Positions 3,657 through 50,815 of a stretch of DNA of 64,000 nt are shown here, in pieces. The notes beneath the pieces are model-generated. The model did not search any database, was not told the DNA's origin, and saw nothing but the letters and a program-made list of their open reading frames with translations. The stretch is from Tubiluchus corallicola (taxonomy: Eukaryota; Animalia; Priapulida), in contig JAQGDQ010000235.1 of the NCBI GenBank assembly GCA_030141605.1, positions 186,001-250,000 on the forward strand, written 5' to 3'. A program made the position numbers and the translations under genes. Numbering within the stretch: the first letter of the stretch is position 1; each line of letters begins with the position of its first letter.

Positions 3657-3836
3657 AGGCTTTTTGTGGGGATTTTGACTGTCCACCGTATGGTGACCCT
3701 ATTTGTGCAACTAAAGCTGATAACATGGAACCCTTGCCAGATGACATGAAAAGTTGGCCAAGCCCTTGTGACTTGGCCTGTGCAATGATAAAGAATCCTT
3801 CATTACGTAATCTCACTCTCACCAGATGTTCACAAG
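3657..3836 (+). CDS. Exon 1 (K1), atypical Kazal domain
   Basis: tctag|AG...CAAG|gtac; [59 protein letters not shown]; absent from the ORF track. Confidence 0.85.
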
Positions 3837-48800: not shown

Positions 48801-50815
48801 GCATGTTTAACAGTAATTATACAATAATAAAGACTATTATATGATCTAGTTATTTTGTTAGCAAATTTTTCCTGCCACTGTCACCAAATCATTTAATATA
48901 AAATGATTAGCTAAAAAACTCCTAGGGGTGATATCTTATCAGTAAAATAACTGATAAGATAACACAGCTCAAGAAAAAATTATAGCTGCAATATTTACGT
49001 ATTTTGTCCATTTATGTAATTGATTAGCTCGTTACCCATAAATGAGCAGCAAAGTTGATTGGCTTGTTACCAAAAAATGCTGACCATTAATTCTAATGCG
49101 TGGGGCTCAGTTAACTTGTTCTGATTAAATGAATGTGCTGTAGAGGGAAAACCTTGTTAGGTGGGTCTACTTACCTCTTGCTATAGATCATTTCAAGTCA
49201 AATTTCTCCCACTTTGCATTATCTAAAGGGATGGGATGCAATATTTCAGATAGGTGCCACATCGATAATTATAATCTGTTATGGAGGCGATACAGCACTG
49301 TTTTAAACATAAATTTACAAAAGATGTTCTTCCAAAGATATTAAGGAACTTTAGAAGCAAAAATAAAAGCAAGTGTTTTTTGCACAGCATATAAATGAAA
49401 ATGGAAACAAGAGAAGAAATACACTAGCTGCTGATTGTTCAGCAATTTCATTTGTGCTTACTTAAATCACTTGCCCACCTCTTCATGCCTGTGGAAAATA
49501 CACAGAATGATTTACAGGTTTGCTGCTTATGTAGTAATGTATTTTCATATGTGCTTACCTTTTTAATTTTTTTCAGTAAGCAGTATTCCTACATATCCGC
49601 GTTGTCATTGCCCTTTCCTAGGTCGTAATCTAGTTTGCGGGACAGATGGTAATAAATATTTCAACTGGTGTATACTGGAGTGTGTGGCTGCGGTAACACC
49701 AGGTTTGAAAAAAGATGATAGCAATGAGTGCTTGAGTAAGCATTCTTTCTTATACATAAATAATTGAAAACGTAGTCTTTCTAAGCAAAAAACATTTTGT
49801 TGGTAAAAAATATATGTTCTAGATTATTAAATAATTCTGAAACAGTAGCAACTTTTGTTGTGTCAGTTACTGATCGCATGTACCATTGCTTTATTTTTTG
49901 TTTAGTAAGAAACTTATTTTTTATTTCAAATGGAGTAAATGTATTTTTCATGTAATTTAGCATTATATTTTGCATAAGCCGAAATGTGGAGAAGTTGCAA
50001 ATTTTGTGACTTCTGTTGGAAGAAGTACCTTGTTTGCAATGAAAATGGTGAATTCATATAGCAAAATTTGCGTTGTTTCACTACACTGTTCTGTTGTTGA
50101 TGCTGGTATTGTAGGTGCCATCGTCATCATCACCATGTGCTGTGAATGGTTTGGTGTGGTGTGGTATGGTGTGGTGTTGTGTAGTGTGAGAATGGTATAT
50201 ATGACATAGCTTTTTTATTTAGTCCAGTTTTATTATCCTATTTGATAGATACGTATATAGCCAAAAGCATTATAGCTTTTGGAACGTTTCAACTTTAGGA
50301 AAAAACTAATCCACATTGTTAAATACTGTGTACTTGCTTATTGCGTTCTTTTTACCCAATGGACTGGATATGTCATTTAGAACACCATTTTTGTTTTTTG
50401 GATCAGCTTCTTTGTCAGTATATCATTTAGAACACCTTTATTTTGCTTAAAGCCTGTTTTATCACAAAACCTTAGAATATGGAGTAGCTCTATTGTGATG
50501 TCAGAATGTTGAAACTCCCTAGAACTTACTAACAATTAGAATGGGAATGAGACCAGTGTGCTGAAATGGACAGCTTTATAGAGTTACTTTTTAAAAAATT
50601 AACCCAATAAAGTTTATGTTATTAAAAATTATGTTCTTTATTGGTAAAAATTATCCGTTTAGTTCCTGGAAAGGAATATGCTCATCGGTGCAATGGTACA
50701 ATACCAGTAATGGAAGGAAAAAGGCCTATGCCTTGTACCAAAGAAATGCCTTGTCCAATTGGTTATGAATGTAATATGGAATTAGAAGATGCCATGCCAG
50801 TGTGCTGTGTTCAAG
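3657..50815 (+). CDS. Partial multi-exon gene: multi-domain Kazal / Lustrin(WR1)-type cysteine-rich protein, probably a secreted protease inhibitor or matrix protein (12 exons seen; ends not seen)
   Basis: 12 exons with AG/GT borders and lengths of 180,168,156,144,162,219,198,156,174,144,159,153 nt. They join in frame with no stops (671 codons), one domain per exon. N-glycosylation sequons: NLT, NCT, NNT, NKT, NGS, NGT. Confidence 0.85.
3942..4124. mobile_element. Small MITE-like inverted-repeat element
   Basis: ~37-bp inverted ends AGACTTACGAGATGATGACATCATTAGTATGATTG / CAATCGTACTGATGACGTCATCATCTCGTAAGTCT. Confidence 0.7.
4765..6560 (-). mobile_element. Degenerate LINE (L2/CR1 group), RT region plus 3' tail
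   Basis: Minus-strand remnants [33 protein letters not shown]; (TTGAA)n tail at ~4767-4787; interrupted by an ATT microsatellite. Confidence 0.75.
6105..6278. repeat. (ATT)n microsatellite
   Basis: Directly visible. Confidence 0.95.
7159..7326 (+). CDS. Exon 2 (K2), Kazal domain, P1 Leu
   Basis: ttttcag|AT...TTTG|gtagg; [55 protein letters not shown]. Confidence 0.92.
7802..7957 (+). CDS. Exon 3 (K3), Kazal-like domain
   Basis: tctag|AT...TATG|gtaaat; [51 protein letters not shown]. Confidence 0.88.
8070..9205. mobile_element. Foldback-like element; ends built from AAAATGGCACA sub-repeats in inverted orientation
   Basis: AAAATGGCACA arrays at ~8070-8215 and TGTGCCATTTT arrays at ~9085-9205; a related end lies at ~38063-38210. 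Confidence 0.55.
9520..11123. repeat. Long inverted repeat: ~500-bp arms (~9520-10030 and ~10665-11123) with a ~630-bp spacer
   Basis: For example AAAACAGTAATCAAACAGTGATCGATCTAATCAGTAAATGG (9640) is mirrored by CCATTTACTGATTAGATCGATCACTGTTTGATTACTGTTTT (10975); the arms are collinear throughout. Confidence 0.9.
11365..11508 (+). CDS. Exon 4 (K4), Kazal domain, P1 Leu
   Basis: tttag|CG...TTAA|gtaaga; [47 protein letters not shown]. Confidence 0.9.
13600..14900 (-). mobile_element. Highly degenerate Gypsy-type pol remnant
   Basis: Minus-strand motif [10 protein letters not shown] at ~14170-14205; many stops; boundaries approximate. Confidence 0.5.
15247..15700 (+). mobile_element. Probable BEL/Pao gag remnant
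   Basis: [24 protein letters not shown] resembles the LP.iei..FdGd...y..F...F motif of BEL/Pao gag (DUF1759). Confidence 0.5.
16375..16703. mobile_element. Non-autonomous hAT (Charlie-like) MITE, 329 bp
   Basis: TIRs CAGTGGTTCCCAAA / TTTGGGAACCACTG; perfect 8-bp TSD TTCTAGCA (16367-16374, 16704-16711). Confidence 0.93.
17575..17785 (+). repeat. GGACATTTGGACAC sub-repeat array (end of a foldback-like element)
   Basis: Inverted counterpart (TGTGTCCAAATGTCC) at ~21360-21600; another copy at ~30610-30740. Confidence 0.6.
18715..19950 (+). mobile_element. Degenerate CR1-type LINE: ORF1 and endonuclease remnants
   Basis: [15 protein letters not shown] (ORF1-like); GVTETW...[11 protein letters not shown]...GAGVTLYV and [11 protein letters not shown] (apurinic endonuclease motifs). 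Confidence 0.75.
20471..20700. repeat. (CT)n microsatellite
   Basis: Directly visible; explains the spurious SL/ER-rich ORFs. Confidence 0.95.
21360..21600 (-). repeat. TGTGTCCAAATGTCC sub-repeat array (inverted partner of 17575-17785)
   Basis: Short tandem motifs in reverse-complement orientation. Confidence 0.6.
21900..22061 (+). CDS. Exon 5 (L1), Lustrin/WR1-type 6-Cys domain
   Basis: tttag|TT...AAAG|gtact; [53 protein letters not shown]; absent from the ORF track. Confidence 0.85.
22399..22617 (+). CDS. Exon 6 (L2), Lustrin/WR1-type domain with 8 Cys
   Basis: tctag|GA...CGAG|gtaac; [72 protein letters not shown]. Confidence 0.85.
25688..25807 (+). mobile_element. 3' fragment of the non-autonomous Helitron, head-to-tail with the next copy
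   Basis: Hairpin CGCAAAATCTTTTGCG followed by CTAG; matches the 3' end of 25808-26606. Confidence 0.85.
25808..26606 (+). mobile_element. Non-autonomous Helitron, ~800 bp
   Basis: 5' TC, subterminal hairpin, 3' CTAG; closely similar copy at 33024-33824. Confidence 0.9.
26631..26695. repeat. (ATT)n microsatellite upstream of exon 7
   Basis: Directly visible; explains the poly-Ile/poly-Leu ORFs. Confidence 0.95.
26780..26977 (+). CDS. Exon 7 (K5), Kazal domain, P1 Leu
   Basis: tttcag|AG...ACAG|gtgat; [65 protein letters not shown]. Confidence 0.88.
27120..27286. repeat. Compound (GA)n/(GT)n microsatellite
   Basis: Directly visible. Confidence 0.95.
27598..28831 (-). mobile_element. Internally deleted Tigger/pogo DNA transposon, 1234 bp
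   Basis: TIRs CAGTGGCCGCCGCTTATT / AATAAGCGGCGGCCACTG with TA TSD. N-terminal HTH ([16 protein letters not shown]..., ATG at 28434) is joined out of frame to the DDE_1 C-terminus ([31 protein letters not shown]) and an acidic tail ending [10 protein letters not shown]. Confidence 0.92.
32246..32664 (+). mobile_element. 5'-truncated RTE (BovB-like) LINE
   Basis: Open frame [30 protein letters not shown]...[21 protein letters not shown] (C2H2 finger); (GCC)n(GAC)n tail; 9-bp TSD AAACGGTGC. Confidence 0.9.
33024..33824 (+). mobile_element. Non-autonomous Helitron inserted into the Gypsy 3' LTR remnant
   Basis: TC...hairpin...CTAG inserted between A and T with no TSD; empty site GTTATCA|TATATAAT present at ~35877-35891. 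Confidence 0.93.
35783..35795 (-). promoter_or_regulatory. Primer-binding site complementary to tRNA-His
   Basis: Minus strand TGGTGCCGTGACT directly after the LTR end; complementary to the tRNA-His 3' end ...AGTCACGGCACCA. Confidence 0.8.
38992..39674 (+). mobile_element. Diverged copy of the non-autonomous Helitron
   Basis: TCTACATATTAAT start, AGGCTACAGCT, TCAAACGAAAGG, TTCAGCAAAAA, end CTGG|T; preceded by a 3'-end remnant ending CTAG. Confidence 0.75.
39737..39892 (+). CDS. Exon 8 (K6), Kazal domain, P1 Met
   Basis: tttcag|GA...TTAA|gtaagc; [51 protein letters not shown]. Confidence 0.92.
42355..42528 (+). CDS. Exon 9 (K7), Kazal domain, paralog of exon 2
   Basis: tttcag|GT...TTTG|gtagg; [57 protein letters not shown]. 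Confidence 0.9.
45785..47096 (-). mobile_element. Probable solo LTR related to the 35796-37376 LTR
   Basis: Same terminus ATTCATAACA; shared TAAGAT(T/C)ACTTAACT motif; imperfect possible TSD GTTA/GCTA. Confidence 0.45.
47876..48019 (+). CDS. Exon 10 (K8), Kazal domain, P1 Lys
   Basis: tttcag|TA...ATGG|gtaagc; [47 protein letters not shown]. Confidence 0.92.
49577..49735 (+). CDS. Exon 11 (K9), Kazal domain, P1 Phe
   Basis: tttcag|TA...TTGA|gtaagc; [52 protein letters not shown]; absent from the ORF track. Confidence 0.92.
50663..50815 (+). CDS. Exon 12 (L3), Lustrin/WR1-type 6-Cys domain, paralog of exon 5
   Basis: tttag|TT...CAAG|gtaatt; [50 protein letters not shown]. Confidence 0.88.

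What the first reader, a model, noticed from the sequence alone, without database searches (positions are those of the whole stretch)
3657..50815. Large modular gene combining invertebrate Kazal domains with Lustrin/WR1-type domains (K4-L2-K5-L1)
Seen: 12 clean exons hidden in TE-rich introns join into 671 stop-free codons with 9 Kazal and 3 Lustrin-like domains; several are missing from the ORF track. Established: the spacing C-x-C-x7-C-x10-C-x3-C-x15-C is close to rhodniin/LDTI-type Kazal inhibitors. The C..P..C..CPxG(Y/F)xC..CC domain (Lustrin_cystein/WR1) is known from abalone lustrin A and from nematode proteins where it alternates with Kunitz domains. Inference: Kazal alternating with Lustrin is an architecture I do not recognise. 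It may be an undescribed secreted multi-head inhibitor or an extracellular matrix/adhesive protein.
Basis: partly seen in the sequence, partly recalled or inferred. Interest (0 to 1): 0.85.

Follow-up and report, generated by a model that had tools for sequence, protein, structure and literature searches.

The report
Kazal–Lustrin multi-headed protease inhibitor gene
Twelve one-domain exons scattered through 47 kb of an invertebrate's DNA encode nine Kazal and three Lustrin-type cysteine domains; they likely splice into one secreted, many-headed protease inhibitor built like the nematode cuticle protein MLT-11 but with Kazal instead of Kunitz heads, a modest new mix of familiar parts.

Summary
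Twelve plus-strand exons (3657-50815), all phase 1-1, join into 2013 nt with no stop, in the order K4-L2-K5-L1. Seven of 9 Kazal exons pass Pfam's cut-off. Two of 3 Lustrin-type exons hit PF14625 just under it. Shuffles give no such patterns (0 in 200).

The open join does not prove one transcript, because symmetric exons join in any subset. No RNA run confirms a junction, and no start or stop exon was found.

The reactive-site (P1) residues P, L, L, L, L, M, H, K, F suggest a multi-specific serine-protease inhibitor. Seven Kazal exons arose by local duplication.

The design has precedents. C. elegans MLT-11 has 10 Kunitz and 3 Lustrin domains and patterns the cuticle. A moth protein joins Kunitz, WAP, antistasin and WR1. 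A hemichordate agrin model has a Lustrin-like domain right after a Kazal domain. I found no described Kazal+Lustrin inhibitor, and my look-ups in the scan's notes found no earlier report of one.

Verdict: a new variant of a known kind, of modest interest.

The parts
3657..3836 (+). Exon K1: divergent Kazal domain, 20 residues between Cys3 and Cys4, P1 = Pro (likely weak or non-inhibitory)
   Evidence: (Kazal_2 E 0.004, below cut-off)
7159..7326 (+). Exon K2: Kazal domain, P1 = Leu; closest paralogue is K7, including intron flanks
7802..7957 (+). Exon K3: divergent Kazal domain, P1 = Leu
   Evidence: (E 0.002, below cut-off)
11365..11508 (+). Exon K4: Kazal domain, P1 = Leu
21900..22061 (+). 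Exon L1: six-Cys Lustrin/WR1-type domain
   Evidence: PF14625 E 8.9e-6, 26.4 bits against cut-off 27
22399..22617 (+). Exon L2: Lustrin-like domain with insertions and two extra Cys (eight in all)
   Evidence: BLASTP to L3, pairwise E 7e-5; no Pfam hit
26780..26977 (+). Exon K5: Kazal domain, P1 = Leu. It lacks the donor that its paralogues use; the predicted donor is 33 nt further on (GT at 26978)
39737..39892 (+). Exon K6: Kazal domain, P1 = Met
42355..42528 (+). Exon K7: Kazal domain, P1 = His, two extra loop residues
47876..48019 (+). Exon K8: Kazal domain, P1 = Lys
49577..49735 (+). Exon K9: Kazal domain, P1 = Phe
50663..50815 (+). Exon L3: six-Cys Lustrin/WR1-type domain, paralogue of L1 (41% identity). 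It ends at a good donor, so the gene likely continues

Best explanation
These twelve exons each encode one disulfide-type domain and likely form the middle of one gene for a secreted, multi-headed serine-protease inhibitor, in which Kazal heads would block proteases and Lustrin-type domains would act as spacers or matrix anchors. Shown: the exon structure, domain identities, P1 residues, purifying selection on the Kazal cores, and growth by local exon duplication. Inferred from family knowledge: each Kazal loop (Cys2-X-P1) enters a protease active site like a substrate. Leu, Met and Phe heads would aim at chymotrypsin-, elastase- or subtilisin-type enzymes, Lys at trypsin-type enzymes, and His as in rhodniin domain 1; the Pro head is probably inactive. 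Inferred by analogy with MLT-11: the protein protects or patterns an extracellular matrix such as cuticle, or shields it from microbial proteases.
For: All 12 exons are collinear, on one strand and phase 1-1. A phase 1-1 exon scan gave 14 loci on + (the 12 exons plus 2 weak ones) and 2 on - (the splice matrices were trained on these exons, and leave-one-out scores were all positive). Signal-peptide-like first exons are not in excess (2 on +, 3 on -). The better-phased candidate, 12915-12975, lies in a high-copy repeat (depth 128-149 against about 2-17 in unique parts). The closest small solved inhibitors are rhodniin, infestin, dipetalin and LDTI. The loop-bracing Asn before Cys4 is kept in 7 of 9 domains (its role is recalled). 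Core pN is below core pS in 20 of 21 pairs, and loop pN exceeds core pN in 18 of 21 (pairs are not independent). K2 and K4-K9 form one clade (96/95) apart from 34 domains of 7 other proteins, so copies on both sides of the Lustrin exons and the long introns are kin. L1 and L3 are paralogues. MLT-11 has a signal sequence, 10 Kunitz and 3 Lustrin domains, and its Lustrin deletions were viable (PMC12642537, passages). It acts in cuticle assembly (PMC13181417, abstract).
Against: No transcript evidence for any junction. No signal peptide, start or stop exon was identified in the window. Symmetric exons join in frame in any subset, and the 10.4-kb and 12.8-kb introns could hide gene borders. K5 has lost its ancestral donor and has the weakest leave-one-out donor score (2.3). 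A signal-like candidate at 29481 in the next intron is unresolved. None of the nine domains has the G-X-Cys6 tail typical of non-classical Kazal inhibitors (0 of 9). The apparent acceleration of the reactive loop over silent sites (p 0.004 and 0.007) mostly vanished with the most favourable gap placement: only 1 of 21 pairs stayed below p 0.05. Kazal domains in agrin and follistatin also match the profile, and these are largely non-inhibitory (recalled).
Confidence: 0.6

Rival explanations
1. The exons belong to two or three neighbouring paralogous genes, for example one ending at K5 and another starting before K6, each a shorter Kazal or Kazal-Lustrin inhibitor.
For: Introns of 10.4 and 12.8 kb are filled with mobile elements. 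K5 lacks the paralogous donor and reads through to a stop at 27043. A hydrophobic ATG-started segment lies at 29481-29553. The K2...L1 and K7...L3 blocks look duplicated.
Against: First-exon candidates are at background level (2 against 3). The 29481 segment lies in CT-rich sequence, and its consensus GTAAGT donor at 29550 is phase 0, which would not join K6 in frame (sequence). K5 has a usable in-frame CAG|GTGATT donor. The other 11 exons keep GT donors at the domain end.
Confidence: 0.2
2. One protein, but a structural or adhesive matrix component whose Kazal domains no longer inhibit proteases, as in agrin- or follistatin-type modules; the Lustrin domains would play the EGF-like role.
For: A C. 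elegans interactome study treats Lustrin/WR1/EB domains as a continuum with EGF domains (bioRxiv 10.1101/2024.07.08.602367, passage). A Ptychodera agrin model has Kazal followed by a Lustrin-like domain. The G-X-Cys6 motif is absent in all nine domains, and K1 has P1 Pro.
Against: The Cys1-X-Cys2 and Cys4-X3-Cys5 spacing is that of rhodniin-type inhibitors. The P1 residues are typical inhibitory ones, and they vary while the core is conserved. No NtA, laminin or other agrin exon was seen among the phase 1-1 candidates.
Confidence: 0.12
3. The symmetric exons are a splicing cassette: transcripts include different subsets of heads and so make inhibitors with different protease spectra.
For: Every exon can be skipped without a frameshift, and P1 differs among close paralogues. 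Unchecked notes report alternative-exon arrays in other genes of this genome; these are a lead only.
Against: Phase 1-1 symmetry is the normal build of extracellular modules (recalled). The mixed K/L order and long introns are unlike a mutually exclusive exon array. There is no RNA data.
Confidence: 0.08

Closest known systems
C. elegans MLT-11 (PMC12642537 passages; PMC13181417 abstract and section 20)
   Same: Large multi-head inhibitor-domain protein with three Lustrin domains interspersed among about ten inhibitor domains.
   Different: MLT-11 uses Kunitz heads and has a thyroglobulin domain, a known signal sequence and a tested cuticle role. Here the heads are Kazal, and secretion and function are untested.
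Non-classical group II Kazal inhibitors: rhodniin (1tbq), infestin (2erw), dipetalin (1kma), LDTI (1an1)
   Same: Six Cys with short Cys1-Cys2 spacing and Cys-X3-Cys; best small-inhibitor PDB hits. K7 shares P1 His with rhodniin domain 1.
   Different: They have no Lustrin domains. The window's domains lack G-X-Cys6 (0 of 9), and K1 and K3 have long insertions.
Priapulus caudatus XP_014669070.1 'agrin-like, partial' (P0006)
   Same: Top hit of the Kazal profile, with 17 Kazal stretches; 16 have the same Cys spacing.
   Different: No Lustrin domain was found. Its domains do not group with the window's seven-domain clade. Its top rank partly reflects its many repeats.
Ptychodera flava agrin-like XP_070562238.1 (P0120)
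   Same: A Lustrin-like domain (residues 758-804; PF14625 at E<=0.001 as an isolated stretch) directly follows a Kazal domain.
   Different: It is a full agrin with NtA, laminin EGF and laminin G domains. The Lustrin hit is not reported on the whole protein, nor by a profile that leaves it out, so it is a weaker precedent.
Plutella PxSPI44 (PMC5309989 passage) and Plakobranchus GFN86201.1 (P0001)
   Same: WR1/Lustrin domains combined with protease-inhibitor modules: Kunitz+WAP+antistasin+TY in the moth, WAP x3 + Lustrin x5 in the sea slug.
   Different: No Kazal domains.

Membership tests
Kazal domain (PF00050/PF07648, MEROPS I1) | Six conserved Cys in a 40-60 residue domain | tested here: met
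   9 of 9 exons have six Cys
Kazal domain (PF00050/PF07648, MEROPS I1) | Pfam gathering score | tested here: met
   7 of 9 pass; K1 and K3 fall below
Kazal domain (PF00050/PF07648, MEROPS I1) | Disulfides C1-C5, C2-C4, C3-C6, and actual protease inhibition | not testable with these tools
   Needs protein work; no Kazal exon was folded here
Non-classical (group II) invertebrate Kazal | Cys-X3-Cys helix motif and P-X-C3-G-X4-T-Y-X-N-X-C4 (PMC3082530, PMC3970688) | tested here: inconclusive
   C-X3-C 9 of 9; P-X-C3 7 of 9; G after C3 6 of 9; Tyr 7 of 9; Asn 7 of 9; Thr before Tyr 1 of 9
Non-classical (group II) invertebrate Kazal | G-X-C6 tail (PMC3970688; a typical feature rather than a strict one) | tested here: not met
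   0 of 9
Lustrin_cystein / WR1 (PF14625) | Six-Cys pattern ending in CP-x-G-x-x-C...CC | tested here: met
   3 of 3 exons; L2 has two extra Cys
Lustrin_cystein / WR1 (PF14625) | Pfam gathering score of 27 bits | tested here: inconclusive
   L1 26.4 and L3 23.4 bits as single domains; L2 no hit. SMART WR1 was not available
MLT-11 orthologues | Kunitz inhibitor domains plus a thyroglobulin domain | tested here: not met
   The inhibitor exons are Kazal; no other Cys-rich phase 1-1 exon was found in the window. It works like MLT-11 at most
Agrin | NtA, follistatin-type EGF-Kazal units, laminin EGF and laminin G domains | tested here: inconclusive
   None seen in the window, but both gene ends lie outside it or were missed
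Secreted multidomain protease inhibitor | Signal peptide and one transcript carrying all domains | tested here: inconclusive
   No first exon found and no RNA run laid across a junction

The most novel reading that the evidence does not exclude
A Kazal-headed counterpart of nematode MLT-11, assembled independently in another moulting-animal lineage (possibly a priapulid worm). Its symmetric exons would be spliced in different subsets to tune which cuticle-remodelling or microbial proteases it blocks.
Probability: 0.15. Interest if true: 0.6.

Novelty: new variant of a known kind. Interest (0 to 1): 0.33.

Why it matters
It adds Kazal to the inhibitor modules (Kunitz, WAP, antistasin) found alternating with Lustrin/WR1 domains, which suggests that 'inhibitor heads spaced by Lustrin domains' is a design reached more than once. 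Its three compact Lustrin exons are convenient material for a domain with no solved relative found here and no clear function. It does not point to a new mechanism: shuffling of phase 1-1 extracellular modules and multi-head Kazal inhibitors are both ordinary.

Tried and rejected
RNA support: no RNA holder was listed. Run X1 behaves as genomic DNA, with contigs over introns. Run X2 (possibly RNA) lay only as short partial pieces, none on an exon among the listed pieces, with no splice joints. This blank says nothing about expression. Exons K1, L1, L2 and K5 were not covered by either lay. No whole genome is held, so the gene ends and paralogues could not be sought.

Architecture search: the Kazal profile gave 636 hits among 7993 scored candidates, of which 120 were listed. 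None of the 120 carries PF14625 in the precomputed domains; a motif scan found a Lustrin-like stretch in 1 of the 120 (P0120). The other 516 were not seen. Lustrin profile searches were weak: 0 hits, 4 hits, and 5 hits in 1.84 billion representatives, of which 3 are real Lustrin proteins without Kazal. These searches plainly miss most Lustrin proteins, so absence is weak evidence. ESM Atlas gave only sub-0.9 leads. The metagenome scan found nothing.

Folds: L3 model pLDDT 73, no Foldseek hit at E<=0.001, best VIA Z 2.6. L2 model pLDDT 58, best Z 2.8. Neither is informative. A planned complex prediction of L3 with subtilisin could not be run, so Lustrin-protease binding is untested.

Positive selection on the reactive loop: significant in the two youngest pairs with Cys-anchored alignment, but not robust to gap placement, so I do not claim it. 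Signal-exon candidate 12915 was rejected as repeat DNA.

Literature: Kazal+Lustrin, 7 papers hold both terms and 5 were listed; I read passages of 2 and saw only the listing of 3. The supplements of PMC13388995 had no Lustrin match. Kazal+WR1, 4 papers and 2 listed, both read as passages. Agrin+lustrin returned neuromuscular papers that look unrelated (listing only). Kazal+priapulid gave 1 unrelated paper (listing only). No passage I read describes a Kazal+Lustrin protein. Subscription papers, InterPro architecture tables and bioRxiv supplements could not be checked.
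Full report
Observation. Six-frame translation showed twelve short Cys-rich segments on the + strand between 3657 and 50815. Each is bounded by an AG after a pyrimidine-rich tract and by a GT donor. All are multiples of three and phase 1-1, with one domain per exon. Pfam puts 7 of 9 Kazal exons above cut-off and the other two just below. L1 and L3 hit Lustrin_cystein at E 9e-6 and 8e-5, and L2 hits nothing. 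L2 still aligns with L1 and L3 on six Cys and carries an insertion with two more. The Cys patterns occur 9 and 3 times on +, never on -, and never in 200 shuffles. Profile searches of the window find no further exon of either kind. The introns are 0.3-12.8 kb long and hold transposon and retroelement remnants.

One gene or several. The open reading frame across the join carries little weight, because symmetric exons join in any subset. I looked for gene borders inside the span. Signal-peptide-like first exons were no more common on + (2) than on - (3). The one at 12915 lies in a high-copy repeat. The one at 29481 is unresolved, but its consensus donor is in the wrong phase (sequence). A scan for phase 1-1 exons returned the 12 exons, 2 weak extra loci on + and 2 loci on -. 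No convincing first or last exon lies in the window, so both ends are probably outside it. The weak point is K5, which lost the donor its paralogues share and could instead be a terminal exon. RNA could not settle this: no RNA holder was listed, and neither laid run showed a splice joint. I put a single gene at about 0.75-0.8.

History. In a tree of 43 Kazal domains (46 columns, rough supports), K2 and K4-K9 form one clade at 96/95, apart from 34 domains of seven other proteins; K1 and K3 are long, unplaced branches (six further proteins gave no domain by my pattern and were left out). K2 and K7 are alike even in their intron flanks, K6, K8 and K9 share donor-side sequence, and L1 and L3 are 41% identical. 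The locus therefore grew by local exon or block duplication. The Kazal cores are under purifying selection (pN below pS in 20 of 21 pairs), and the reactive loops vary more than the cores (18 of 21). A first test suggested that the loops outpace silent sites in the two youngest pairs. With gaps placed favourably, only 1 of 21 pairs stayed at p<0.05, so positive selection is not claimed.

Mechanism. P1 lies at Cys2-X-P1 and sets specificity (PMC3970688, passages). The P1 residues here are Pro, Leu, Leu, Leu, Leu, Met, His, Lys and Phe. Lys points to trypsin-type targets (PMC13101452, passage) and Phe to chymotrypsin. Leu and Met point to elastase, chymotrypsin or subtilisin (recalled from ovomucoid). 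His matches rhodniin domain 1 (alignment). Rhodniin, infestin, dipetalin and LDTI are the closest small solved inhibitors, and they define non-classical group II (PMC3082530, passages). Against a clean fit, all nine domains lack the G-X-Cys6 tail and eight lack the Thr before the conserved aromatic residue. No inhibition is shown. The Lustrin exons gave no solved relative by sequence or fold. One study treats Lustrin/WR1/EB as a continuum with EGF domains (bioRxiv 10.1101/2024.07.08.602367, passage). In MLT-11, deletions of the Lustrin domains were viable with no obvious phenotype (PMC12642537, passages). Spacer or matrix anchor is therefore the likeliest role.

Comparison. The nearest design is C. 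elegans MLT-11: signal peptide, thyroglobulin domain, 10 Kunitz and 3 Lustrin domains, needed for cuticle patterning and embryogenesis (PMC13181417, abstract and section 20). The window's gene is not an MLT-11 orthologue, since its heads are Kazal. Lustrin/WR1 also accompanies Kunitz, WAP and antistasin in a moth (PMC5309989, passage), WAP in a sea-slug model and trypsin in a sea anemone (bioRxiv 10.1101/645952, passages). It is a promiscuous extracellular module. Among the 120 listed of 636 multi-Kazal hits, none had PF14625 annotated. One, a Ptychodera agrin model, has a Lustrin-like stretch right after a Kazal domain; it hits PF14625 at E<=0.001 in isolation, though not on the whole protein or with a leave-one-out profile. 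The top Kazal hit is a Priapulus multi-Kazal protein without Lustrin. Unchecked notes on this genome also suggest a priapulid-like animal; I treat that as a lead, and the cuticle analogy depends on it.

Novelty. My searches (for papers; for sequences) found no described inhibitor made of alternating Kazal and Lustrin domains. These searches were insensitive for Lustrin proteins, and I had no domain-architecture database. Look-ups in the scan's notes showed no earlier report of it. The parts, the exon-shuffling route and the overall design are all known; only the pairing seems unreported. Verdict: real, a new variant of a known kind, interest 0.33.

Noticed in passing
window 7270-7271 (exon K2): A DNA contig of run X1 covering 6911-8120 differs from the window at only two adjacent bases, both in one K2 codon (Glu in the window). 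The variant codon equals the Ala codon at the same place in paralogue K7, so it may be an allele or a gene-conversion trace.
   Followed up: partly
window 26940-26980: Exon K5 has lost the splice donor that K4, K6, K8 and K9 share and would gain 11 residues from former intron.
   Followed up: partly
all nine Kazal exons: None has Gly two residues before Cys6, unlike rhodniin or the Priapulus domains: a lineage-specific remodelled tail.
   Followed up: partly
window 7119-7413 and 42316-42615: K2 and K7 share about 71% DNA identity, including over 100 nt of downstream intron.
   Followed up: yes
window 50665-50814 (L3): A weak likeness of the Lustrin C-terminal half to granulin-like hairpin peptides (starfish Kartesh 2, 8v2m) appeared in both the HMM search (E 0.036) and Foldseek (E 8.8).
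   Followed up: no
window 27723-28292 (-), 32937-35945, 55752-58412 (-), 58502-61411 (+): Decayed mobile elements: a DDE_1 transposase remnant; an LTR-retrotransposon remnant with an aspartyl protease; a LINE-like remnant with PHD and RT pieces; and an LTR element with RNase H and integrase that carries a 69-bp unit three times at 60351-60560.
   Followed up: partly
window 25812-26642 and 33029-33861: An 848-bp direct repeat at 86% identity on either side of exon K5.
   Followed up: no
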